IMG/VR virus record: IMGVR_UViG_3300033075_000957
Coordinates: 1 to 64,000 of that record
DNA length: 64,000 nucleotides
Direction: 5' to 3' (one strand)
DNA from: a virus
Lineage: Duplodnaviria; Heunggongvirae; Uroviricota; Caudoviricetes
Below, in pieces: positions 1,331-62,985 of the stretch. Numbering within the stretch: position 1 is the stretch's first letter; each line of letters opens with the position of its first letter. Below the pieces are notes generated by a model. It did not search any database and was not told the DNA's origin. It saw only the letters and a program-made list of their open reading frames with translations. The position numbers and the translations under genes were made by a program.

Positions 1331-1788
1331 TTCTACGTTGAAACTGGTGAAATACGAACACCGTCTTTACAATCCGCTTACGAGGTAGTTAATTCAACGC
1401 TTCCATCATAAGCGTTTTCGATTATCGGGCCTTTGGCCCGAGAAAGCATAGTTAGTGGCAAAAGTGGAAGTATCGGGTTACTCGCCTGATAATAGGGCAA
1501 CCTTTCCGATCCATGTCGGATATAACCAGTTTACCGTTCCGGTAAACAAACAACATGGATAACTATGCAGAGTAGCTTGCAGCCTGCGAAAGCAGGTTGC
1601 TTGCTTTATGTACACTGTTTCATGGCGAAAATCTTTGGAAAGCAATCGATTCCGTACTGTATCAAGGACCGTGTTTGGAATTACCAAATACATTTCGGAA
1701 GAATCGGCTGCTCGACAAACTGAGAAGTTTAAGAAACATTTTCCGAACAATAATTATTATATTACAAAGATTCCAGAGGAAAAGACTT

Positions 1789-2043
1789 ATGCGTAACAAG
1801 CTGCCGACAGAAATCTTTACTCTTGTGGACGAACAGGGAAATCCTGTCTATACCGATTTGGGTATGGATGGGCATTTCGTTAAATGTACCACGCTTGGTG
1901 ACATGCTGACCTTTACCCGAGAAATTGGATGGTCGCAGATGCACCGTCTCGCCGAATGGTCAGAGAAGCACCGTGATAATGATCGGATCGTCGTATATCC
2001 GGCGAGAGTTGTCCTGAAGATTGAAAAGATTTCAGTCGAATAA
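1789..2043 (+). CDS. hypothetical protein
   Basis: Internal ATG (MRNKLPTEIF..) with GAGGAAAAG RBS; the 5' part of ORF 1597..2043 looks non-coding (homopolymeric Ile run, no RBS). Confidence 0.35.
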   Translation: MRNKLPTEIFTLVDEQGNPVYTDLGMDGHFVKCTTLGDMLTFTREIGWSQMHRLAEWSEKHRDNDRIVVYPARVVLKIEKISVE

Positions 2044-2244
2044 AAATTAACGATACGGAAGAGGCAGCACTAATTACCCATACGAAAAATGTTTCGAAGC
2101 ATCCGTTGGGAACGCAAGAGTAGAATCGTGTAAGTATAGCAACGGTAAGTACTTGCCGACACCTTGTAGGTATTATCCTGCCGTGGACTGAATCCTACTG
2201 ATTAGTGCTGTCTTTTCTGTACCGTTACCGGATGGGGTGATCAC

Positions 2245-2412
2245 ATGAGTAAAGCGTTTCAAGAAGGTTACGAAGAAGGCCGTAAATGTGGTAAACCGGG
2301 TGTAATGCGTGATGAATCCGCATTAACACGCGAAGAAAATCCTTATCCAAAGGATTCTAAAGAGCACGCTGAATGGGATCGTGGCTGGAAATGTGCTAAT
2401 GATGGATGGTAG
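2245..2412 (+). CDS. ribosome modulation factor (RMF)-like small protein
   Basis: 55-aa ORF below the ORF-track cutoff: MSKAFQEGYEEGRKCGKPGVMRDESALTREENPYPKDSKEHAEWDRGWKCANDGW. The spacing pattern GY..G..G...C...R..NPYP....W..GW matches the RMF family signature. Confidence 0.45.
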   Translation: MSKAFQEGYEEGRKCGKPGVMRDESALTREENPYPKDSKEHAEWDRGWKCANDGW

Positions 2413-2658
2413 CCCTTCGGCGATTGAGAAAATGGTTCCGGCGTGGCAGACCGGTTTATAAATACAATGCCCATTCGCTACGCGATAGCGAGTGATGCTA
2501 CTATAAGTAAGCCCAAGTTAGTGTCTAACCATCACTCTTGGAGAAAATCGGGCTTTATAACCCCTGATTCTTGGTGAAAGACCAAGTAGTAGCGTTTCCT
2601 TCGGAGATACAATCATTTCAATCAATCAATCAATCCTGATTGCAGTTCGGAGAATAAT

Positions 2659-2946
2659 ATGCTTGGTGTAGTTAGTAAAGAAACGGTTCGTCGTATTATG
2701 ACCGTGCCTAATCTCTGGGCCACGCATCCGAATGATCCGATGTTTAATACCTTGGTTGCAGAAGACACTAAACTAATACAACAAATCCAACCATTTGTTG
2801 GTACGAATAAGATAAGTCAAGACGATTTAACTCTTTTATTTGAATTTTTTGAATACCATAGTCCTACAGGTATAGGACGAAAGCCTTGCACGGATAAAAT
2901 CCGTAAAAAGATGCAGATACTAGCTGCTAGATTATCCAATGGATAG
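2659..2946 (+). CDS. hypothetical protein
   Basis: ORF 95 aa with GGAGAATAAT RBS. Confidence 0.45.
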   Translation: MLGVVSKETVRRIMTVPNLWATHPNDPMFNTLVAEDTKLIQQIQPFVGTNKISQDDLTLLFEFFEYHSPTGIGRKPCTDKIRKKMQILAARLSNG

Positions 2947-3307
2947 AGGTTTTATCATCATAGATCGCGATGAATTGACCCGATCCACGACGTAAGGTTT
3001 GTGATATCGGCGGTGGATACGTAAACATTAGCGATGCTTTGTATCATCGAAGGTTGAATTTGAAATTACTAAGTAAGGGATTGCATCCCTTAAACCCTGC
3101 TGACGATACAGGAGAATGAGTATTCCAGCACTAGCAATCTCATATGATTGGAGGATGTATGGAAACGGCGAAAGGCCAAACTGGAATACAATGCGTCAAT
3201 AAAGACCCATCAGATTGATTATCTGGTACTTTTCGGTAGTGTTAATAACGAGTCCGAATCATTCTTTTTGTATCTTGGCCCACGATTGTAGTTCGCGGAG
3301 ATATCTA

Positions 3308-3481
3308 ATGGCCGCTGCCACACTGTTTGGCTCGATGAGTCGTCCGTATAAAACACAGACGGGTACAAGTTACGACAGAAAGCCACTGTCGAAGCGAGAA
3401 GCAAAATTGCAGGAAAAGAATCGGCTACGCCGAGAAAAAGAAATCGCGAAAGTAAATACTTATGAAAAGAGACGAGATTAA
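3308..3481 (+). CDS. hypothetical small basic protein
   Basis: Internal ATG (MAAATLFGS..) with GGAGAT RBS; Lys/Arg/Glu-rich C-terminus. Confidence 0.25.
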   Translation: MAAATLFGSMSRPYKTQTGTSYDRKPLSKREAKLQEKNRLRREKEIAKVNTYEKRRD

Positions 3482-3704
3482 AACTCTTCTAGCATCTTGG
3501 CCCGTAATTCTTGAAATCGTCTTGTCAAAAGCGGATAGTATTGTCCGAATTGATTGGGAAAGTCCCGAACTTTCTATCTGTTTTAAAGTCAATACGATGT
3601 TTAACTATAAAATGCTTACAGAACTTATTGAAACAAATGAGTTTGTAGGAGTTCTTCATCGACCCGAGTGTGTTGTTCTCATATTTGAATTTCCGGAGGA
3701 ATAA
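3462..3704 (+). CDS. hypothetical protein
   Basis: ORF 80 aa. Confidence 0.4.
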   Translation: MKRDEIKTLLASWPVILEIVLSKADSIVRIDWESPELSICFKVNTMFNYKMLTELIETNEFVGVLHRPECVVLIFEFPEE

Positions 3705-3784
3705 ATGGGCAATTCTTCTTCGACCACATTAATCAGTTTGTTTGCAGCAGTACCCGAAACGGAATATAAGGATTGGTAGTATTT

Positions 3785-4093
3785 ATGAAACATGAATACG
3801 CAGATAAATATGTACAGTGTGTCGGAGATATTCCTCAGCAAGATCACTGGGCTATCTTTGAATCGTCAAGCGTTCATGTTCCGGGCGATCAACGTTCTAT
3901 TGATGCTCCGGGACATGGTTATCCTGCATATGCGGTAAACTTTGTTAATTATGAAGTTTATCTCACAGAAGATAAGTGGCGAAGACAAATTGAATATAAG
4001 ACTAATCCACAGTCTGGTTCACCAAAATCATTTGTAGCCGTTCAAATTAGGCGAGCAAAGATCAAAGCAGAAACACGAATTGAGGTAACTTAA
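3785..4093 (+). CDS. hypothetical protein
   Basis: ATG at 3785 (MKHEYADKY..) with AAGGA 13 nt upstream; ORF track start 3773 is a TTG. Confidence 0.45.
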   Translation: MKHEYADKYVQCVGDIPQQDHWAIFESSSVHVPGDQRSIDAPGHGYPAYAVNFVNYEVYLTEDKWRRQIEYKTNPQSGSPKSFVAVQIRRAKIKAETRIEVT

Positions 4094-4318
4094 ATGAGAT
4101 GTCAACGTTGTGATTCAGATCGTGTTCTAATTACACAGGCTCATGCTAGTGATTGTCAGAATTACGAGCTTAAAGACTTTGTTCGTTATACCAATTATGC
4201 CCCGGATATTTCGGAAATATGTCAAGGCGATGACTTATTTCCTCAGATTTGTCTTGACTGCGGACAAGTTCAAGGAACTTTTCCTAAGCCCACGATTCCA
4301 GAATTAGGAGAAGAATGA
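4094..4318 (+). CDS. zinc-ribbon protein
   Basis: N-terminal CxxC and C-terminal CLDC pairs; GAGGT RBS. Confidence 0.45.
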   Translation: MRCQRCDSDRVLITQAHASDCQNYELKDFVRYTNYAPDISEICQGDDLFPQICLDCGQVQGTFPKPTIPELGEE

Positions 4319-4539
4319 TCCTTCCACAAAAACTTTATAGAAAACCGCCAATAAACGGCGGAAATTTTGGATACGTCACTAAAGCTATTTTGCAACACGA
4401 CGGAATTCATTTTGTAGATCGGCTTACGAACATAGAAAATAAAATACCTTCATACGATTCCATAGAAACAATGAATAAGACCCTGAAAGGTCTGGGATTT
4501 GACGAATTTGAAATCGTTAATAAATGGCCAATAGATTAA
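4315..4539 (+). CDS. hypothetical protein
   Basis: ORF 74 aa, start overlaps upstream stop (ATGA). Confidence 0.45.
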   Translation: MILPQKLYRKPPINGGNFGYVTKAILQHDGIHFVDRLTNIENKIPSYDSIETMNKTLKGLGFDEFEIVNKWPID

Positions 4540-10094: not shown

Positions 10095-10180
10095 GGGGAT
10101 GTGTCGAAATTGCCAAACGAACTTCACTTAAAATGAAGCGGTTCTTACGAACCTTACGGGTTGAAGTCCCGTCATCCCCA
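10095..10180 (+). tRNA. tRNA-Leu (anticodon TAA), type II
   Basis: Acceptor GGGGATG/CATCCCC, anticodon stem CTTCA/TGAAG with loop CTTAAAA, long variable arm GGTTC-TTAC-GAACC, T-arm ACGGG-TTGAAGT-CCCGT. D-loop has CC where G18G19 normally sit and the T-loop has G at position 56, a compensatory swap; 86 nt. Confidence 0.65.
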
Positions 10181-10194
10181 CTTAGGAAATAAAT

Positions 10195-29303: not shown

Positions 29304-29327
29304 AATAATTTATACATACGTGAAAGC

Positions 29328-29338
29328 GTGTGTATAAT
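29328..29338 (+). promoter_or_regulatory. GTGTGTATAAT promoter-like motif upstream of the Y-RNA-like array
   Basis: Same motif family as upstream of about 11 other genes. Confidence 0.4.
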
Positions 29339-29404
29339 ATTTGGGGCCGAAGATTTTTGCTTATCTCTTGTAATGAAACAGCAATTATCACTATATGCCC
29401 CGTG

Positions 29405-29530
29405 CGAACGGTAGCCGAGCAGTTAGGCGGCAGCAAAAAAGATATCCTTAGTCGCTTATACCCTATTGGGTCGAAGACATAGGATTAACACTGGGGCTGT
29501 TATACGATGGTGCAATTCCATCCCGTTCGA
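29405..29530 (+). ncRNA. tRNA-like module A (acceptor CGAACGG/CCGTTCG, D hairpin GCCG..CGGC, T-arm GATGG-TGCAATT-CCATC) with a ~75-nt insert replacing the anticodon arm
   Basis: Hand fold; the insert contains a CCTAT[TGGGTCGAAGAC]ATAGG hairpin. Confidence 0.4.
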
Positions 29531-29701
29531 TTTGGGCCGAAGATAATCGGTTATCCAACTCTTTTTAGTGTTTGCCCGCAAGGGCTTCCGAGAGTCACTA
29601 TGCCCATTTACCCGTGCTAGGCAATGGTGCCGATCTTTCTTTCATACCGGTTGTTCGTTAGAAAGAAAAGGTAGTTCGATTCTACCAGACGGGGTTTGAT
29701 G

Positions 29702-29816
29702 GTACGTTCCGCTAGGGCGGGAATGGTTTGTCTAATCATGTCCTTTCATGGGCCGAAAGATAAACCTTATCTTATCTGAAAACAAGATTCGGTGGGTTCG
29801 AATCCCACAACGTATC
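29702..29816 (+). ncRNA. tRNA-like module C (acceptor GTACGTT/AACGTAT, hairpin CCGC-TAGG-GCGG, T-arm GTGGG-TTCGAAT-CCCAC) with an insert containing ATGGGCCGAAAGATA
   Basis: Hand fold. Confidence 0.4.
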
Positions 29817-29922
29817 CTTTGGCGAGATAGCTTAATGGTTAGAGCACTAAATCCCCTGAACGAATTATATCCTTATGGGTCGATAGGATAGAGCCATTGT
29901 CTGGTGGAGATAGAGTTTTGAG

Positions 29923-30752: not shown

Positions 30753-32363
30753 ATGGCAAATTACGGAAACAGTCTCAAAAATCGTAAACGCACTCCGATC
30801 ACCGAAGCGGTGCCCGGTACAGCAATGGTGCCAAATAATGGCGGTGGATATGGTTATGTCGTAGACGACTTCATTCGTTTACAACGATTTCTGATTCTCG
30901 GATCGGACGGCGGTACCTACTATGTCGGCGAACGGGAGTTAACGGTTCAGAATGCTGAATGCATTACTAGATGCCTAAATTCTGATTACAAGCGTGCTAT
31001 TGATATGATCGTTAATATTAGCGATCAAGGTCGTGCTCCAAAGAATAGTCCTGCGGTTTTTGCTTTGGCAATGGCCGCTGCTCACGAAGGCAGCAACGCT
31101 CGCGAATGCCGTAAATATGCACTCGCTAACTTAGCCAAGGTCTGTCGTATCGGTACACATCTCTTTGAGTTTACCGAATACGTTACTAAAATGCGTGGAT
31201 GGGGGCGTTTGCTTAGAGACGGAGTTGCTTCGTGGTATACAGATATGGACGAGGAACGCCTTGCCTATCAGGTAATTAAGTACCCACAACGTACTATTAC
31301 TGAAGGTAACGCTTCTTCCGCATGGTCGCATAAGGACATCTTACGGTTATCCCGCCCATCTGGTAATAAAAACCATCAAACTATCTACAATTACATCCAT
31401 TCCGGAGAATTTAAATCTAGAGCAGAATCGCTCGCGATTATTGCTGGAACTGAAAAGATTAAACTGGCAAAAAATATAGATGAATGTGTAAAACTTATTT
31501 CTAAATATAATCTTCCTCATGAAGTTGTACCTAAGCAGTTTGCGAATTCGAAAGAAGTTTGGGAAACTTTGCTACCTAATCTTCCTGCTACTGCCCTGAT
31601 TCGTTCTCTTGGCCGCATGCAATCCTATGGATTATTTGAAAACGGTTCTGAATCTCTTAGGATTGCTTTAGAGAAAATTAGCGATGTAAATTGGTTGAAA
31701 AAGAGCCGTATGCATCCCCTCAATATTCTTATTGCCCAGCGTACCTATACTACTGCACACGGAACAAAAGGAAATCTTACATGGACGCCAAATCCGCAAA
31801 TTACGGAAGCTCTTGAAAAGGCATTCTATAATGCGTTTGACTATGTAGAGCCTTCTGGCAAAAACTTACTAATTGCTGTAGATATTTCTGGTAGTATGAT
31901 ATCTCGTTTTGGTACTTTTAATATTAGTTCCTGCGAAGTTGCGGCTGTTTTAGCTATGGTTGCTGCCCGAAGAGAACCTAGCTCATATATTGTCGGATTC
32001 GCTTCTCAGATTGTTGATCTAAAAATTACTAAAAATGATACTCTCGAATCTGCGTGCAAGAAATGCCAAGGAAACTGGGGTTCAACAAATTGTGCTGCTG
32101 CGATAGATCACGCAATCCAGCATCGTTTAAACGTGGATGCTTTTCTAATCATCACCGACAATGAGTCTAATACCGGTGTGCATCCTGCACAAGCTATTAA
32201 ACAATATAGAAATCAGGTTAACAAACCGAATGCTAAACTGATAAGTTTAGCGACTACAAGTACTCGTACTACAATTAATGATCCTAACGATTTCGATTGC
32301 CTCGATCTTGTCGGATTCGATACTGCGGTACCAGAACTTATCACGAATTTCATTCGCGAATAA
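30753..32363 (+). CDS. rsr: Ro60 ortholog (TROVE domain plus vWA domain; bacterial Rsr-like)
   Basis: 536 aa; N-terminal TROVE-like region (FIRLQRFLILGSDGGTYY); C-terminal vWA domain with MIDAS motif LLIAVDISGSM and ITDNESNTG; the size and architecture match bacterial Rsr. Confidence 0.7.
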   Translation: MANYGNSLKNRKRTPITEAVPGTAMVPNNGGGYGYVVDDFIRLQRFLILGSDGGTYYVGERELTVQNAECITRCLNSDYKRAIDMIVNISDQGRAPKNSPAVFALAMAAAHEGSNARECRKYALANLAKVCRIGTHLFEFTEYVTKMRGWGRLLRDGVASWYTDMDEERLAYQVIKYPQRTITEGNASSAWSHKDILRLSRPSGNKNHQTIYNYIHSGEFKSRAESLAIIAGTEKIKLAKNIDECVKLISKYNLPHEVVPKQFANSKEVWETLLPNLPATALIRSLGRMQSYGLFENGSESLRIALEKISDVNWLKKSRMHPLNILIAQRTYTTAHGTKGNLTWTPNPQITEALEKAFYNAFDYVEPSGKNLLIAVDISGSMISRFGTFNISSCEVAAVLAMVAARREPSSYIVGFASQIVDLKITKNDTLESACKKCQGNWGSTNCAAAIDHAIQHRLNVDAFLIITDNESNTGVHPAQAIKQYRNQVNKPNAKLISLATTSTRTTINDPNDFDCLDLVGFDTAVPELITNFIRE

Positions 32364-48076: not shown

Positions 48077-48223
48077 GCTATTGACTGCAATAGCAGTTTA
48101 TCAGTGTGTGGGGTAGCAGCCGCCCGCTTGCTTTGGGAGCAAGTATACGCAAGTGCAATTCTTGCCACATTGACTTTGGGCCAGTAACTCAATATGTAGA
48201 GTGCCGATTTTGCAAATCGGAGG

Positions 48224-48833
48224 TTGCGAAGTCGCATTCGCCTGTGTCCATTGATGATCGGTATTAGAATTAAAGAAAACGATTTGTTTGTTGTTGAACA
48301 CGGCGTTAAAAGACGTGCTGAAAAAGTTTTGTGCAAAGTATGTAATAAAAAATTTATTCGCCGGATTGGAAGGAAAACTAGTAGATGTTCTCGATCTTGT
48401 TTTTATAAAACGACACGTCATAAAAAGACTGTTCTTGAATGTTTCAATTGCCATCAAAAATTTGAAAGATTGCCAAATAAACTAAAGGGTGCTAGGCACG
48501 GTATTTATTTTTGTTCAAGAAAATGCAAAGACTTTGCTCAGAGTTTGCGAGGAAATTGTCCAAAAATTAGACCATCGCATTATGGCACTACAGACGAATA
48601 TTTAGTTAAAGATTTTTATAAAGAGCATTTTCATAAAGGATGTTTGTGCGGAGAAAAAGAATTATCTTTTACAAATCCATCATGTAGACGGAAATCATTC
48701 CAACAATCAATCAGAAAATTTAGAAATCGTCTGTGCTAACTGCCATATTAAACGACATCTGGTGTATAAAAACGGAACTTGGACATATTGTATGTCAAAA
48801 TTAACTCCTAGGGATCAGTTAGATAAAGTTTAA
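48224..48833 (+). pseudogene. HNH homing endonuclease interrupted by a frame change near the A-run 48651-48661
   Basis: CxxC Zn modules in the frame of ORF 48224..48739; the HNH core (LQIHHVDGNHSNNQSENLEIVCANCH) continues in the +1 frame 48606..48833; junction is CLCGEKE | KNYLLQIHH. Confidence 0.5.
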
Positions 48834-49523: not shown

Positions 49524-49861
49524 TCTTGACAGCAAAGGGCAGCACTTTGGTCCGCAATTTTTCAAGTGTTGAGGACAAGCAACGAAAAGTAGGCAATAAC
49601 TCGAACCATCCATTCGATAGCCGGGAGTAGTTCCAGTTCCAAGCGATAATGCTTCTTTCTGAACACCGGGAGGTAAGTAAGAAAGGATTTTGCAAAATTG
49701 GTGTAATTGGCAGCACGTTAGCCTTCCAAGCTAATAGTATCCGATCGTGGCGGATATTTTGCATTGTCTTAATTTCTAAGGTACTGACTTTAATCGTTTA
49801 CGCCATTAGTCAGAGGCGGTACAAACCAATTAGAATACAGGTTATTCTTTTGGAGTATCGT

Positions 49862-50635
49862 ATGTCTTGGCAACCAACAAAACATGAAGACCGAATTGGC
49901 TATAAATATTATAAATTAACTATTATCGATAAAATAATTGAAAATAATTGGTTTTACTGGATATGTTCTTGCGAATGCGGCAAAACAATTAAATTAAAAC
50001 ACTGTAATCTTTTTGGAAAAAGAAAAGTTAGAAGTTGTGGTTGCTATCATTCTTATCCTAAAATCGATTTATTAAATAAAAAGATAGGAAAACTCACTCC
50101 CTTTAAGTTTATTAAAGAAGGGAAACAAAATTATTGGCAATGTAAATGCGATTGTGGACAGGAAATAATTAAAAAGCATAGTTATTTAGTAAATGCTCAA
50201 TATCCTGCTTGTGAAAAATGTCTTTCAGATAAAAGAAAACAAAACAATAGTAAAGTAGGAAAAAGATCCGATAAAAATCTTTACAAAAATCTGTATAGAC
50301 AGTACAGCAAATCAGCTGAACAAAGAGATTTAAAGTTCGAACTATCATTAGAAGATTGTAAAAAATTTTTTAATAAAAGATGTTTTTATTGCGATACTCT
50401 TCCACAAAATATTATTAAAAATTCTCATTATGAAATTATTTGGAATGGAATAGACAGAATTGATTCATCGGTAGGATATAATAAAGAAAACTGCGTCACT
50501 TGCTGTACCATCTGTAATTTTGCTAAAAGATCATTGTCTATAAACGAATTTAAAGATCATATAGAAAAAATTTATACAAATTTTATAAATTATCAGAAAA
50601 AAGACAGTAAGCAACTAATGTTATTTGACTGTTAA
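49862..50635 (+). CDS. HNH_3-family homing endonuclease
   Basis: ATG (MSWQPTKHED..) with GGAGTA RBS; CSCECG..CGC and CKCDCG Zn modules; GIDRIDSSVGYNKENCVTCCTICNFAK is HNH_3. Confidence 0.55.
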   Translation: MSWQPTKHEDRIGYKYYKLTIIDKIIENNWFYWICSCECGKTIKLKHCNLFGKRKVRSCGCYHSYPKIDLLNKKIGKLTPFKFIKEGKQNYWQCKCDCGQEIIKKHSYLVNAQYPACEKCLSDKRKQNNSKVGKRSDKNLYKNLYRQYSKSAEQRDLKFELSLEDCKKFFNKRCFYCDTLPQNIIKNSHYEIIWNGIDRIDSSVGYNKENCVTCCTICNFAKRSLSINEFKDHIEKIYTNFINYQKKDSKQLMLFDC

Positions 50636-50740: not shown

Positions 50741-50825
50741 GACAGAGTAGGCAAGAGGCATAACCCGGTGGTGTACGGCCACCGCCCTTCAATGGTGTCA
50801 ACGGTTCGAATCCGTTTCTCTGTCA
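50741..50825 (+). tRNA. tRNA-like gene, paralog-like to the downstream tRNA-Tyr but with a non-canonical anticodon loop (TGTACGG) and one extra nucleotide before the 3' acceptor strand
   Basis: Acceptor GACAGAG/CTCTGTC perfect, T-arm AACGG-TTCGAAT-CCGTT, D region GGCAAGAGGCATAA aligns with the tRNA-Tyr D region GGCAAGCGGCAAAG, same 16-nt variable-arm length; the hairpin GGTGG-TGTACGG-CCACC puts G at position 33. Confidence 0.4.
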
Positions 50826-60051: not shown

Positions 60052-62985
60052 ATGACTACATTTATCGACCATAACGAAATTTTAAGTCCAGAGTTTTTGC
60101 AGAAATATGTTGGCAAGCACCCAAAATGGGGTTTTAACGGATTAGGATATATAGTATATAAAAGAACTTATGCCAGATGGATTCCAGAACTTAAGCGGAC
60201 TGAAGAATGGTGGGAAACCGTCGCTAGATGCATTCGCGGTGCTCAAAAAATTGGGGCAGGATATACGGTACAGGAAGCAGAGCGTTTATACGATCATGTT
60301 TTTAATCTGCGTTGTAATTTTGCCGGGCGTATGTTATGGCAATTGGGAACAGAAACTGTTGATAAGATAGGACTTCCGAGTCTTTGCAATTGCTGGAATG
60401 TTAACATCAATTCTTTAGAATCATTTTGTTTTATCTTCGAGCATCTTATGCTCGGTGGCGGGGTGGGCTTCAGTGTAAAAAAGGAACATGTCCACGAATT
60501 ACCAAAGGTTAAAGACGGCGTAGTCATCAAACATCTGGCCACTAAAGACGCTGATTTTATAGTCCCTGATTCCCGTGAAGGATGGGTAGAATTACTACGC
60601 AAAATACTTAATGCTTATTTTGTAACCGGAAAAGGCTTTACTTACTCTACGATTTTAATTCGTGGAGCCGGAGAAAAGATTAATGGATTCGGCGGTACGG
60701 CCAGTGGTCCACAAATTTTAATTGATGGACTAAATAATATTTTTGGCGTGATCTCAAAGCGTGTTGGTAAGAAATTAAGAAGTATTGACGCATTAGATAT
60801 CGCTAATATTCTAGGCAGTATCGTAGTTGCCGGAAACGTTAGAAGAAGTGCTCAGTTAGCTCTTGGCGATGCGGATGATAAATTATTTCTTAATGCTAAA
60901 CGCTGGGACTTAGGTAATATTCCTAACTGGCGTGCTATGTCAAATAATACTGTAAGTGCAGATGATTTCACTTATCTTAGCAATGATTTTTGGCGTGGAT
61001 ATGAGGGCGACGGAGAGCCTTATGGTTTAGCAAATATTGATTTATGTCGAAAGTTTGGCCGTTTAATCGACGGGCCTATGTCTAAATGTTCTTTGTATCC
61101 ACAAAGAGAAGATAAGGTAGAAGGTTTAAATCCTTGCCAACCAAAATGGGCGTTTGTTTTAACTAAAAACGGTATTAGACAATTTGGCAAGCTACAGATT
61201 GGAGACGAAATTTGGTCTTCAGAAGGTTGGACGAAAGTTGTAAAGAAATGGTCCACCGGTATTAAAAATGTGTATAAATACACAACTACAGCAGGTATTT
61301 TTTATGGAACAGAAAACCATAGAGTACTTAGTGACAACAAAAAAATCGAAGTACAAGAAGCGGAATCTATCGACATTCTTCGAGGAGGATTATCAACAGA
61401 AGACGATCTGCTACCACAAGACATCATGGATGGACTAGTTATTGGCGATGGTATGGTGCATAAAGCATCCAATAATTTAGTTCTTTTATGTATTGGACAA
61501 GATGATCAGGATTATTTTCAGAGCGAAATTACACCGCTGATACTTATCGATCGCTTTGGTATAAGCGACAATGCTTATGAAATACAAACCACAATTAAAT
61601 CAGAAGAACTTGCTAGAACTTTTGATCGAACAATCCCTGATCGTTTTGTAACTGGATCGGCGAAAACAATTCAAGGATTTTTAAGAGGGCTATATTCTGC
61701 CAACGGTTCGGTTTGCGGCAATCGTATTACATTAAAAGCAACTTCGCTTGCCCTGATCGAACAGGTACAAGTGATGCTTAGTGCTATTGGAATCAAATCT
61801 TATTATACCACAAACAAATCGTCATTGGTAACATTTGAAAACGGCGAATATCTTTGTAAACAAAGTTATGATTTAAACATTACTATTGATCGCCATCAGT
61901 TTGTTAAAAAAATTGGATTTATTCAATCTTATAAGAACGATAAAATTCGGAGTTCCAATCCAGTTCAAAATGAAAAAGTATCCTACGATATTAAATCTGT
62001 TGAACTGGTATCTCGCGAAGAAGTTTTTGATATTACTGTTGACAATCTTTCGCACACCTATTGGACTCATGGATGTAACGTGTCTAATTGTGCCGAAGCC
62101 ACGCTTGAACACGGTGAACCGTGTGATCTAGCTGAACAATATCTTCACAATCTTTCTTCACAGGAAGAATTTAATGATTGTGCAATGTTGCTATATAAAA
62201 CGCAAAAAGCTATCTTACGTTTAGATTCTATCTCCGATTGGACTAACGCAGTAGTGAAGCGAAACATGCGTGTTGGTCTTGGCGTAACTGGTGTTTGTGA
62301 AGATATCAAAAAGATTGTATGGTTAGATGATGGATATCGCTCACTTCGAGCGATAGATAAAGAGTGGTCTAAGAAACGTGGCTGGCCTGAAAGTATAAAG
62401 CTAACGGTTGTCAAGCCGTCAGGCACGTTAAGTTTGCTCGCCGGATGCACTCCCGGATGCCATCCCGCTTACGATAAATACTATATCCGTAGAGTACGGA
62501 TGGCCTCTTCTGATTCATTAGTTAATACTTGTCGTAATTTAGGTTGTAAAATTGAATATCAGATCGGTTTTGATGGAAAAGAACAGCACGACACTGTGGT
62601 TGTAGAATTTCCTTGCAAAGCCTCAGATAACGCAATTATTGCCAAAGATATGACTGCGGTAGAACAATTAGAAATTATGAAGACTTTACAGTCAGTTTGG
62701 GCCGATCAGGCTGTATCGGTAACAGTTTATTATCGTAAAGAAGAATTGCCAGCAATTAAATTATGGCTTGAAGAAAACTATGAAACATCGGTTAAAAGTG
62801 TAAGTTTCTTACTTCATAACGACCACGGATTCCGGCAGGCCCCGTATGAATCTATTACTAAAGAAAAATATGAAGAACTTATTAAGAATATGAAACCTTT
62901 AAATTCGTTGATAACTAATAATGATATTGGTGGCGAATTAGTAGAGGGTGTAGAATGCGTTAATGGAGCATGTCCCATTAGATAA
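60052..62985 (+). CDS. ribonucleotide reductase catalytic subunit (class II-like) carrying an intein
   Basis: 977 aa; MLGGGVGFS glycine-rich motif; active-site NPC|AE split by the intein (GLNP-[intein]-CAEATLE); C-terminal CVNGAC redox pair. Confidence 0.65.
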   Translation: MTTFIDHNEILSPEFLQKYVGKHPKWGFNGLGYIVYKRTYARWIPELKRTEEWWETVARCIRGAQKIGAGYTVQEAERLYDHVFNLRCNFAGRMLWQLGTETVDKIGLPSLCNCWNVNINSLESFCFIFEHLMLGGGVGFSVKKEHVHELPKVKDGVVIKHLATKDADFIVPDSREGWVELLRKILNAYFVTGKGFTYSTILIRGAGEKINGFGGTASGPQILIDGLNNIFGVISKRVGKKLRSIDALDIANILGSIVVAGNVRRSAQLALGDADDKLFLNAKRWDLGNIPNWRAMSNNTVSADDFTYLSNDFWRGYEGDGEPYGLANIDLCRKFGRLIDGPMSKCSLYPQREDKVEGLNPCQPKWAFVLTKNGIRQFGKLQIGDEIWSSEGWTKVVKKWSTGIKNVYKYTTTAGIFYGTENHRVLSDNKKIEVQEAESIDILRGGLSTEDDLLPQDIMDGLVIGDGMVHKASNNLVLLCIGQDDQDYFQSEITPLILIDRFGISDNAYEIQTTIKSEELARTFDRTIPDRFVTGSAKTIQGFLRGLYSANGSVCGNRITLKATSLALIEQVQVMLSAIGIKSYYTTNKSSLVTFENGEYLCKQSYDLNITIDRHQFVKKIGFIQSYKNDKIRSSNPVQNEKVSYDIKSVELVSREEVFDITVDNLSHTYWTHGCNVSNCAEATLEHGEPCDLAEQYLHNLSSQEEFNDCAMLLYKTQKAILRLDSISDWTNAVVKRNMRVGLGVTGVCEDIKKIVWLDDGYRSLRAIDKEWSKKRGWPESIKLTVVKPSGTLSLLAGCTPGCHPAYDKYYIRRVRMASSDSLVNTCRNLGCKIEYQIGFDGKEQHDTVVVEFPCKASDNAIIAKDMTAVEQLEIMKTLQSVWADQAVSVTVYYRKEELPAIKLWLEENYETSVKSVSFLLHNDHGFRQAPYESITKEKYEELIKNMKPLNSLITNNDIGGELVEGVECVNGACPIR
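61135..62088 (+). mobile_element. intein (318 aa) with LAGLIDADG homing-endonuclease domain, inserted before the catalytic Cys of the RNR NPCxE motif
   Basis: Begins CQPKWAFVLTKNG (block A), TENHRVL (block B), LAGLIDADG motifs GLVIGDGMVH and GFLRGLYSANGSV, ends ..CNVSN followed by the extein Cys. Confidence 0.55.

What the first reader, a model, noticed from the sequence alone, without database searches (positions are those of the whole stretch)
2245..2412. Unlisted 55-aa ORF resembling ribosome modulation factor (RMF)
The ORF is below the 60-aa track cutoff. Its sequence MSKAFQEGYEEGRKCGKPGVMRDES..NPYPKDSKEHAEWDRGWKCANDGW reproduces the RMF pattern (GY..G..G....CPY......W..GW). It has its own RBS and is flanked by 200-250-nt structured intergenic regions. 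A phage-encoded ribosome hibernation factor would be a direct means of manipulating host translation.
Basis: partly seen in the sequence, partly recalled or inferred. Interest (0 to 1): 0.55.

Follow-up and report, generated by a model that had tools for sequence, protein, structure and literature searches.

The report
Acidic RMF-like small phage gene
The 55-codon reading frame is a real, conserved gene of an uncultured large phage. Its protein is a distant relative of the bacterial ribosome modulation factor but lacks the positively charged residues that factor uses to grip ribosomal RNA, so it is probably not a ribosome-hibernation factor.

Summary
The ORF at 2245-2412 (+) exists as described. 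It is a real gene: three homologues differ mostly at synonymous sites (dN/dS 0.07-0.15).

It belongs to the RMF/CrpP-like domain superfamily, but only weakly. The Pfam RMF match has E 8e-5 and 23.1 bits, below the 27.9-bit cut-off. A profile comparison gives 97% probability to a non-canonical RMF-like clade and 76% to true RMFs, the latter over the C-terminal half only.

It is not an RMF orthologue:
- It is acidic (net -2, pI 5.3). Eighty canonical RMFs have net +4 to +11 and pI 9.9-11.5.
- It lacks the basic N-terminal KRQKRDR segment.
- It keeps at most one or two of the five Arg/Lys residues that contact 16S rRNA.

Structure prediction was low-confidence and did not recover RMF. RMF-domain proteins of unknown function are already annotated in phages, so this is a divergent variant of a known kind.

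The flanking intergenic regions are structured:
- The downstream element (2462-2594) is conserved in related phage contigs. Eight of 35 base pairs show compensatory changes, and there is no Rfam match.
- The upstream element has the strongest inverted repeat in the window.

Whether these RNAs work with the protein is unknown.

The parts
2245..2412 (+). 55-aa protein-coding gene: an acidic, divergent RMF/CrpP-like domain protein. The RMF-like core is roughly residues 16-53, and residues 1-15 form a clade-specific N-terminal helix.
   Evidence: ORF confirmed. dN/dS 0.07-0.15 against two homologues. Pfam RMF E 7.9e-5. hhalign 97% probability to the RMF-like clade and 76% to canonical RMF. Net charge -2, pI 5.3. 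AlphaFold helices at 3-14, 18-25 and 39-52, mean pLDDT 64-69.
2234..2239 (+). Shine-Dalgarno-like GGGGTG, 5 nt upstream of the ATG.
   Evidence: Read directly from the sequence. No experimental support.
2048..2227 (+). Element A: a structured intergenic RNA candidate. A long closing stem (27-nt arms, 85% complementary) encloses about 126 nt with several hairpins. It is associated with the gene, but no functional link is shown.
   Evidence: Strongest inverted repeat in the 64-kb window. RNA folding z-score -4.97, with 0 of 200 shuffles folding as well. The 3' part is weakly similar to L009 1-170, whose 5' end is cut by the contig end. No Rfam match.
2433..2461 (+). Conserved leader of element B: the hairpin CCGGCGTGGCAGACCGG followed by TTATAAATACAA. 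It could be a promoter-like or terminator-like signal, and this is unresolved.
   Evidence: Nearly invariant between the window and L009. The sigma-70 consensus scan calls no + strand promoter here.
2462..2594 (+). Element B: a conserved structured non-coding RNA of about 130 nt with five or six hairpins. It contains a single-stranded GGAGAA, a hairpin with the conserved loop CUUUAUA(A)C, and a terminal tRNA T-arm-like hairpin CUUGG-UGAAAGA-CCAAG.
   Evidence: 82% identical to L009 203-357, more than the ORF itself at 77%. All 35 pairs are paired, 8 changed on both sides, and 3 of 500 shuffles reach this; slid controls pair 30-42%. G-U pairs place it on the + strand. A covariance model finds a weak full-length match in L002 2668-2808. 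The motif GGAGAA-N-GGCTTTATA(N)CCCC occurs once each in the window and L002, with 0 expected, followed in L002 by a perfect T-arm. No Rfam family and no tRNA call.

Best explanation
Window 2245-2412 is a genuine small gene of an uncultured large phage. The window carries many tRNAs and genes for Ro60, RNA ligase, NAMPT and ribonucleotide reductase. The identical protein is recorded once, on a 156-kb JGI contig.

The product is a 55-residue acidic helical protein. Its C-terminal two-thirds (about residues 16-53, with the motif G...NPYP...W.RGW) are homologous to the RMF/CrpP-like domain.

Shown:
- It is under purifying selection.
- It is homologous to the RMF superfamily, and closer to uncharacterised non-canonical RMF-like proteins than to true RMF.
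- It lacks the basic N-terminal arm and the basic helix-1 face of RMF.

Inferred: without those residues it cannot clamp the 16S rRNA backbone between h28 and h37/h40 as RMF does. So it most likely does not induce 100S ribosome hibernation. It more probably uses the conserved linker and helix-2 hairpin as a small docking module for a protein partner, host or phage, during early infection. The partner is unidentified. A ribosome-associated target remains possible, because the part retained corresponds to the part of RMF that touches S7, S1 domain 4 and the 16S 3' end.

The gene sits between two structured RNA elements that are co-conserved with it in related contigs. Their position relative to the gene differs between lineages, which argues that they are separate RNA genes rather than its dedicated leader or trailer.
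For: Real gene:
- Homologues P0002 and P0003 have 69-71% identity.
- dN/dS is 0.07-0.15 with near-saturated synonymous change.
- Between the window and the L001/L002-type contigs only this ORF and a metallophosphatase gene give a tblastx match. Element B leaves only a weak covariance-model and motif match in L002.

Superfamily membership:
- Pfam RMF E 7.9e-5, and all three members hit.
- hhalign to the clade whose members pass Pfam's cut-off (P0022 33.8 bits, P0006 45.1 bits) gives 97% probability, E 1.2e-10, over 38 ungapped columns.
- An independent HMM of that clade picks this ORF at E 1.2e-5 among 1,405 ORFs. The next best is 0.13.

Not RMF proper:
- The scores are below all curated cut-offs.
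- A canonical-RMF-only profile gives E 0.013.
- hhalign to canonical RMFs gives 76% probability over only 28 C-terminal columns.
- Net charge is -2 and pI 4.9-5.3 in all three homologues. Eighty canonical RMFs have net +4 to +11 and pI 9.85-11.5.
- The conserved basic residues that bind the 16S backbone are missing in both possible alignment registers.

Phage context: Pfam and PHROG annotations of neighbouring large genes, and 11 tRNA calls.
Against: - No direct evidence for any partner or activity.
- The region shared with RMF (linker and helix 2) contacts the 16S 3' end, S7 and S1 in the 100S structure. Ribosome binding by a different mode is therefore not excluded.
- The host is unknown, so it cannot be said whether the host has RMF or HPF.
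- 'Protein-docking module' is a generic inference from charge and size, not a tested mechanism.
Confidence: 0.55

Rival explanations
1. The protein is a functional phage-encoded RMF that binds the 30S subunit at the anti-Shine-Dalgarno pocket and drives ribosome dimerisation or hibernation to shut off host translation.
For: - RMF is the only Pfam family hit.
- The conserved motif NPY...W..GW matches the RMF linker and helix 2. In the E. coli 100S structure this region helps fix the 16S 3' end.
- The length matches E. coli RMF (55 aa).
- The surrounding genome is rich in translation- and RNA-related genes.
Against: - Acidic, against a uniformly basic RMF family.
- The KRQKRDR arm is absent, and Arg3/Lys5/Arg8/Arg11/Arg15 are mostly missing.
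- Scores are below every curated cut-off.
- It is closer to non-RMF clades.
- RMF needs HPF and S1 contacts specific to Gammaproteobacteria, and the host is unknown.
Confidence: 0.12
2. An anti-hibernation decoy. The acidic RMF-like protein mimics part of RMF and occupies or titrates an RMF partner (S1 domain 4, the S7 tail, or RMF's pocket) without locking the ribosome. This would prevent or reverse host 100S formation so the phage can translate in starved cells.
For: It retains the linker and helix-2 half, which contacts S7 and S1 in the 100S structure. It has lost the rRNA-anchoring half. This is inference only.
Against: No evidence for any interaction. The non-canonical RMF-like clade it resembles occurs in bacteria that are not known to use RMF, such as Rhodopila and Caldimonas. 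That suggests the domain has ribosome-independent roles.
Confidence: 0.1
3. The protein works with the flanking structured RNAs as a small ribonucleoprotein or RNA chaperone. The module would be A + ORF + B.
For: The ORF and element B co-occur in three divergent phage lineages, although almost nothing else in the neighbourhood is conserved. Element B is better conserved than the ORF. Element B exposes an SD-like GGAGAA and a tRNA-like T-arm.
Against: An acidic 55-aa protein is a poor candidate for RNA binding. The relative position varies: B is 20 nt downstream in the window, directly upstream in L009, and 1.35 kb upstream in L002. Co-occurrence may simply reflect common descent of the region.
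Confidence: 0.1
4. It is not a gene. A chance ORF lies inside a cluster of non-coding RNA genes, and the RMF-like pattern is coincidental.
For: 55-aa ORFs are abundant by chance (75 ORFs of at least 30 aa in the first 6 kb). The surroundings are RNA-rich.
Against: dN/dS 0.07-0.15 with 59-74% of synonymous sites changed. Identical start and stop register in three lineages. Independent profile hits in all three.
Confidence: 0.03

Closest known systems
Ribosome modulation factor RMF of Gammaproteobacteria (Pfam PF04957; NCBIfam NF011162/PRK14563; PDB 6H4N chain v, 4V8G, 2JRM)
   Same: - About 55 residues.
- Shares the linker and helix-2 motif (C/N)PY...W..GW.
- It is the only Pfam family hit.
   Different: - Acidic (pI 5.3) against basic (pI 9.9-11.5).
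- No KRQKRDR N-terminal arm.
- At most one or two of the five 16S-contacting basic residues are kept.
- Scores are below the curated cut-offs.
- Only 28 columns align at 76% probability.

Non-canonical RMF-like domain proteins ('EDEGYLAAEAG...NPYP.GT.R...WRRGW' clade; single or tandem domains; e.g. hypothetical proteins of Rhodopila sp.; P0006, P0007, P0015, P0022)
   Same: This is the best profile match: 97% probability, E 1.2e-10, over 38 ungapped columns covering residues 16-53. It shares NPYP and W.RGW.
   Different: - Those proteins pass Pfam's RMF cut-off.
- They have the aromatic GY at the start of the core, where the window clade has GV.
- They carry a C-terminal basic tail.
- They are often tandem.
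- The window clade has its own N-terminal helix (FxEGYEEGRKxGKPG) and ends right after helix 2.
- Their function is equally unknown.
[quoted passage not shown]
   Same: They are small RMF-like proteins encoded by phages or mobile elements, with no demonstrated function. tblastn finds weak matches (E about 0.1) to hypothetical proteins in Rhizobium, Burkholderia and Roseobacter phages.
   Different: The window clade hits no PHROG. It scores 16.1 bits against the 28-bit cut-off of NF041886. It has no relative in IMG/VR or in 185,579 species genomes.
For flanking element B: tRNA-like stable RNAs of phage tRNA regions and YrlA-type Y RNAs
   Same: - It has a terminal T-arm-like hairpin, which is a perfect GGUUCGAAUCC-type T-arm in the L002 version.
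- It has a multi-hairpin architecture.
- It lies in a phage that encodes Ro60 and many tRNAs.

   Different: - No GNCGAA(N)G Ro60-binding motif.
- It lies 28 kb from the Ro60 gene, whereas YrlA genes lie within about 4 kb.
- It is not called by ARAGORN or by any Rfam model.
- The true YrlA-like candidates lie at 29.3-29.9 kb.

Membership tests
RMF proper (ribosome hibernation factor; Pfam PF04957, NCBIfam NF011162 equivalog) | Profile score at or above the curated cut-off | tested here: not met
   Pfam 23.1 bits against 27.9. NF011162 16.3 bits against 40. A profile built only from canonical RMFs gives E 0.013, 11.8 bits.
RMF proper (ribosome hibernation factor; Pfam PF04957, NCBIfam NF011162 equivalog) | Conserved basic N-terminal arm and helix-1 residues (Arg3, Lys5, Arg8, Arg11, Arg15) that bind the 16S rRNA backbone | tested here: not met
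   The residues are defined. K2, R3, K5, R6 and R11 are invariant in 11 canonical RMFs. In the BLASTP/Pfam register the ORF starts at RMF position 9, with K3 at Arg11 and E7 at Arg15. In the MAFFT/hhalign register only K3 (and perhaps K17) is retained.
RMF proper (ribosome hibernation factor; Pfam PF04957, NCBIfam NF011162 equivalog) | Strongly basic protein | tested here: not met
   Window clade: net -2, pI 4.9-5.3. Eighty canonical RMFs: net +4 to +11, pI 9.85-11.5.
RMF proper (ribosome hibernation factor; Pfam PF04957, NCBIfam NF011162 equivalog) | Linker and helix-2 motif (C/N)PY...W..GW | tested here: met
   N32-P33-Y34, W44, G47 and W48 are invariant in the clade and aligned to RMF C29-P30-Y31, W40, G43 and W44.
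RMF proper (ribosome hibernation factor; Pfam PF04957, NCBIfam NF011162 equivalog) | Two-helix hairpin fold superposable on solved RMF | tested here: inconclusive
RMF proper (ribosome hibernation factor; Pfam PF04957, NCBIfam NF011162 equivalog) | Binds 30S and, with HPF, converts 70S to 100S; occurs in Gammaproteobacteria | not testable with these tools
   This needs biochemistry. The host of the phage could not be inferred, because the closest phage proteins are only about 30% identical and come from diverse hosts.
RMF/CrpP-like domain superfamily (Pfam RMF domain in the broad sense) | Significant profile-profile similarity to proteins that themselves pass the Pfam RMF cut-off | tested here: met
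   hhalign gives 97% probability, E 1.2e-10, to the clade of P0022 and P0006. Those score 33.8 and 45.1 bits against the 27.9-bit cut-off. An independent HMM gives E 1.2e-5.
RMF/CrpP-like domain superfamily (NCBIfam NF041886 Rmf_CrpP_fam) | Score at or above the curated cut-off | tested here: not met
   16.1 bits against 28, matching residues 33-49 only.
YrlA-type Y RNA (considered for flanking elements A and B) | GNCGAA(N0-1)G motif near the 5' end, and a location within about 4 kb of the Ro60 gene on the same strand | tested here: not met
   The criteria come from Chen et al. 2014. The motif is not present in 2048-2227 or 2433-2594 (read). The Ro60 gene is at 30753-32363, about 28 kb away. 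Motif-bearing candidates lie at 29.3-29.9 kb instead.
tRNA (considered for element B) | Cloverleaf recognised by ARAGORN or the Rfam tRNA model, with a 7-nt anticodon loop | tested here: not met
   There is no call at 2433-2594. Only a T-arm-like hairpin is present. The conserved loop CUUUAUA(A)C(C) is 8-10 nt long.

The most novel reading that the evidence does not exclude
The acidic RMF-like protein and the two co-conserved structured RNAs beside it form a phage module aimed at the host ribosome's anti-Shine-Dalgarno and RMF pocket. One of the RNAs has an exposed SD-like GGAGAA and a tRNA-like T-arm. The protein would be a charge-inverted RMF mimic that blocks or reverses host hibernation, or retargets S1/S7. 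The RNA would engage the 16S 3' end. Together they would let the phage translate in dormant cells.
Probability: 0.08. Interest if true: 0.75.

Novelty: new variant of a known kind. Interest (0 to 1): 0.3.

Why it matters
If the protein did act on ribosomes, it would be the first characterised phage use of the RMF fold. It would also give a handle on how phages cope with hibernating ribosomes in starved hosts.

On the evidence here the case is more modest. The gene adds a rare clade to the poorly understood RMF/CrpP-like domain family: three sequences among 5.8 billion, acidic, with an N-terminal extension. No member of that family outside canonical RMF has a demonstrated function. It also shows that a Pfam 'RMF' label on phage proteins should not be read as 'hibernation factor'.

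The side observation may be of equal value. A conserved, covarying RNA of about 130 nt with tRNA-like features and no Rfam family lies next to the gene. It sits in a phage that also carries Ro60 and several Y-RNA-like genes.

Tried and rejected
1. Nucleotide search of 1500-4500 against 50,697 phage records found no match. tblastn of the ORF found only marginal hits, E at least 0.09.
2. PHROGs and PADLOC gave no family for the ORF or its neighbours. Pfam found nothing for ten neighbouring small ORFs.
3. A PDB sequence search with the ORF and with its 3-sequence profile did not reach RMF.
5. Scans of IMG/VR and GTDB genomes for relatives of the protein found none. The metagenome scan found only two distant RMF-like loci in high-GC prophage-like contexts.
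6. The window protein itself could not be located by exact look-up, so the source sample and the rest of the 156-kb contig stayed out of reach.
7. IMG/VR scans with conserved 16-17-mers and a gapped motif of element B returned only chance matches.
8. Rfam at relaxed thresholds on each flank gave only chance-level hits: PK-repZ, HOTAIRM1_3 and snR75, with E between 0.66 and 1.6.
9. I considered that elements A and B are Y RNAs for the phage Ro60. I rejected this on the motif and the distance.
10. I considered that A and B are halves of an intron carrying the ORF. Nothing supports this: there is no Rfam intron hit, the flanking ORFs are unrelated, and in L009 a terminator-like hairpin separates A from B.
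11. Host inference through a clamp-loader-like protein failed. The hits are about 30% identical and come from mixed hosts.
12. A literature search found no study of a phage RMF homologue. Only annotations exist: phage Milano, and for other hibernation factors HPF in rV5-like phages and a Balon-like protein in TayeBlu.

Full report
**1. Observation**

The ORF is present exactly as described: window 2245-2412, + strand, ATG to TAG, 55 aa, MSKAFQEGYEEGRKCGKPGVMRDESALTREENPYPKDSKEHAEWDRGWKCANDGW. An SD-like GGGGTG (2234-2239) precedes the ATG by 5 nt.

The window is a stretch of a large uncultured phage:
- Nearly all long ORFs are on the + strand.
- ARAGORN tRNAs and Rfam.
- It carries genes for ribonucleotide reductase (with a LAGLIDADG insert), Ro60/TROVE, NAMPT, RNA ligase and a clamp-loader-like AAA+ protein.
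- It has no nucleotide match among 50,697 phage records.

**2. Is it a gene?**

Yes.
- The word-indexed search of 5.8 billion proteins found the identical protein once (a JGI contig of 156,166 bp) and one homologue, P0002 (54 aa, 69% identity, on 16 contigs).
- The exhaustive search of 1.84 billion representatives added P0003 (55 aa, 71% identity) and three longer proteins with repeated weaker matches.
- Pairwise Nei-Gojobori estimates give dN/dS of 0.11, 0.15 and 0.07, with 59-74% of synonymous sites changed.
- Start, stop and length are the same in all three.
- Between the window and the L001/L002-type contigs, tblastx finds only this ORF and a metallophosphatase gene that lies 31 kb away in the window. 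The small gene is therefore among the best-conserved features of the neighbourhood.
- No relative exists in IMG/VR or in one genome for each of 185,579 prokaryotic species.

**3. Relationship to RMF**

Curated libraries:
- Pfam gives RMF (PF04957) as the only family: E 7.9e-5, 23.1 bits, below the 27.9-bit gathering score. All three homologues hit it, best 1.1e-5.
- NCBIfam gives Rmf_CrpP_fam at 16.1 bits (cut-off 28) and the RMF equivalog at 16.3 bits (cut-off 40).
- PHROGs gives nothing.

Direct and profile comparisons:
- BLASTP against E. coli RMF gives 22% identity over 49 columns with a 12-residue gap, E 0.007.
- hhalign of the 3-sequence clade against 11 canonical RMFs gives 76% probability, E 2.2e-5, over only 28 C-terminal columns, residues 25-53.
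- Against a clade of non-canonical RMF-like proteins (consensus EDEGYLAAEAG..L.ENPYP.GT.RH..WRRGW) it gives 97% probability, E 1.2e-10, over 38 ungapped columns, residues 16-53. Members of that clade pass Pfam's cut-off at 33.8 and 45.1 bits.
- HMMs I built from those two sets, neither containing the ORF, both rank it first among the window's 1,405 six-frame ORFs. The non-canonical clade gives E 1.2e-5 and canonical RMFs give E 0.013. There is no second RMF-like ORF in the window.

So the protein is a member of the RMF-like domain superfamily by transitive homology. It is nearer to the uncharacterised members than to RMF.

The ungapped alignments place RMF's G16-Y17 opposite G19-V20 of the ORF. 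Pfam's alignment uses the other register.

**4. Why it is unlikely to work as RMF**

In the E. coli hibernating ribosome, helix 1 of RMF inserts between 16S helices h28 and h37/h40. The conserved Arg3, Lys5, Arg8, Arg11 and Arg15 hydrogen-bond the rRNA backbone, and the N-terminal extension intertwines with that of S7. The linker and helix 2 hold the 16S 3' end and touch S7 and S1 domain 4 (Beckert et al., bioRxiv 10.1101/382572).

- K2, R3, K5, R6 and R11 are invariant in the 11 canonical RMFs aligned.
- In the BLASTP register the ORF begins at RMF position 9, so Arg3, Lys5 and Arg8 have no counterpart. Arg11 corresponds to Lys3, which is missing in P0002. Arg15 corresponds to an invariant Glu7.
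- In the MAFFT register only Lys3 is kept. Lys5, Arg8 and Arg11 face Phe, Gly and Glu.
- All three clade members have net charge -2 and pI 4.9-5.3. Eighty canonical RMFs from the search have net +4 to +11 (median +7) and pI 9.85-11.5.

What is retained is the half of RMF that contacts S7, S1 and the anti-SD strand. This keeps a ribosome-related role possible but does not demonstrate it.

**5. Structure**

- AlphaFold with the 3-sequence alignment gave mean pLDDT 64, with helices at 3-14 and 39-52.
- With a 17-sequence alignment it gave pLDDT 68.6, with helices at 3-14, 18-25 and 39-52.
- This fits 'N-terminal extra helix plus RMF-like helix-linker-helix', but confidence is low.
- The fold test is inconclusive.
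- Positions 15 and 50 are Cys/Cys in two homologues and Tyr/Tyr in the third. This hints that they are in contact (inference).

**6. What is known about such proteins**

- RMF-domain proteins have been noted in phage genomes. [quoted passage not shown]
- E. coli RMF and the prophage-borne P0066 both match phrog_10492, whose function is unknown.
- Distant RMF-like ORFs sit in prophage-like, high-GC loci next to an ORF that by eye looks like a RuvC-type resolvase (not scanned), or as a domain inside a 205-aa protein.
- Other hibernation factors have been annotated in phages: HPF in rV5-like phages, and a Balon-like protein in TayeBlu.
- I found no experimental study of a phage RMF homologue.
- The kind is therefore known. 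This clade is a rare, acidic variant with an N-terminal extension.

**7. The flanks**

Upstream (2044-2244):
- The RNA fold has z-score -4.97.
- It contains the strongest inverted repeat of the whole window, with arms 2048-2074 and 2201-2227 enclosing 126 nt.

Downstream element:
- 2433-2590 is 82% identical to L009 203-357. There it lies immediately upstream of the homologous ORF. The ORFs themselves are 77% identical.
- RNAalifold finds 43 pairs, none broken, 9 with compensatory double changes.
- On the trimmed core (2462-2594) all 35 pairs are kept and 8 are changed on both sides. Three of 500 shuffles reach this, and slid controls pair only 30-42%.
- G-U pairs indicate a + strand RNA.

Other lineages:
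- A covariance model of this core finds a weak full-length match in L002 2668-2808 (16.2 bits, E about 0.004-0.007). It lies 1.35 kb upstream of that lineage's RMF-like gene, inside a 1.7-kb gene-free stretch.
- The shared module GGAGAA-N(2-5)-GGCTTTATA(N)CCCC occurs once in each source, with none expected. It occurred only once, by chance, in all of IMG/VR.
- In L002 it is followed by a perfect tRNA T-arm, CUUGG-UUCGAAU-CCAAG. The window has CUUGG-UGAAAGA-CCAAG.
- L009 1-170 also resembles the 3' part of the upstream element, and a terminator-like hairpin separates the two elements there.

Interpretation:
- The order is A-ORF-B in the window and A-B-ORF in L009, and B is distant from the ORF in L002. 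I read A and B as independent stable RNA genes of unknown function that share a neighbourhood with the small gene, not as its dedicated UTRs.
- No Rfam family matches either element.
- They lack the GNCGAA(N)G motif of YrlA-type Y RNAs and lie 28 kb from Ro60. Good Y-RNA candidates sit at 29.3-29.9 kb.

**8. Verdict**

- The functional part (a ribosome hibernation factor) is not supported by charge, key residues, profile scores or nearest relatives.
- Most likely this is a small acidic docking protein of the RMF/CrpP-like superfamily with an unknown partner. Residual ribosome-related roles (RMF-like about 0.12, anti-hibernation decoy about 0.10, RNP with the flanking RNAs about 0.10) remain open.
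- Interest is modest. The conserved unclassified RNA next to the gene deserves its own follow-up.

Noticed in passing
window 2433-2594 (+); L009 203-357; L002 2668-2808: A conserved structured RNA ('element B') with 8-9 compensatory pair changes between two phage lineages. It has an SD-like single-stranded GGAGAA, a hairpin with the conserved loop CUUUAUA(A)C, and a T-arm-like terminal hairpin. There is no Rfam family and no tRNA call. Its position relative to the RMF-like gene differs in each lineage.
   Followed up: partly
window 2048-2227 (+): 'Element A' is the strongest inverted repeat of the 64-kb window, with 27-nt arms enclosing 126 nt of further hairpins. The RNA fold z-score is -4.97. 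Its 3' part is weakly conserved in L009, where the 5' arm is cut off by the contig end, so covariation could not be tested.
   Followed up: partly
window 29304-29920 (+), upstream of the Ro60/TROVE gene 30753-32363: A gene-free stretch carries four copies of the Ro60-binding-type motif GNCGAA(N)G (GGGCCGAAGAU twice, GGGUCGAAGAC, GGGCCGAAAGAU), plus a looser GGGUCGAUAGG that does not fit it, and three tRNA-like T-arms. This looks like a cluster of YrlA-type Y RNAs. ARAGORN's 84-nt 'tRNA-Glu' at 29611-29694, which Rfam does not confirm, is probably the tRNA-like domain of one of them.
   Followed up: partly
L002 2135-3871: A 1.7-kb stretch with no called genes lies upstream of the 94-aa gene and the RMF-like gene. 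It holds several sigma-70-like promoters (TTGACA...TAnAAT), terminator hairpins and two perfect T-arms (AAAGG-UUCGAAU-CCUUU at about 2337, CUUGG-UUCGAAU-CCAAG at about 2784). ARAGORN and Rfam call no tRNA. This looks like a cluster of tRNA-like non-coding RNA genes.
   Followed up: partly
window 60052-62985 (+): A 977-aa class II (B12-dependent type) ribonucleotide reductase carries an internal LAGLIDADG domain at residues 541-589. This suggests an intein.
   Followed up: no
window 10095-10181, 50741-50825, 48178-48250, 49691-49764: The tRNA calls disagree between tools. ARAGORN's tRNA-Leu (10095) and tRNA-Val (50741) are not confirmed at Rfam's gathering score. Rfam calls an extra tRNA at 48178-48250. 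The tRNA-Gly at 49691-49764 lies inside the mechanically listed ORF 49649-50635 (HNH-endonuclease-like), whose true start is probably further downstream.
   Followed up: no
window ORF residues 15 and 50 (codons at 2287-2289 and 2392-2394): The only two cysteines co-vary. They are Cys/Cys in the window protein and P0002, and Tyr/Tyr in P0003. This suggests that the two positions touch in the folded protein.
   Followed up: no
L010 5686-6303; P0004, P0005, P0006, P0007: The RMF-like domain also occurs as a module inside larger proteins (a 205-aa protein in a high-GC contig) and as two to five tandem repeats (up to a 455-aa protein). This is hard to reconcile with a purely RMF-type ribosome-pocket function for the wider family.
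   Followed up: partly
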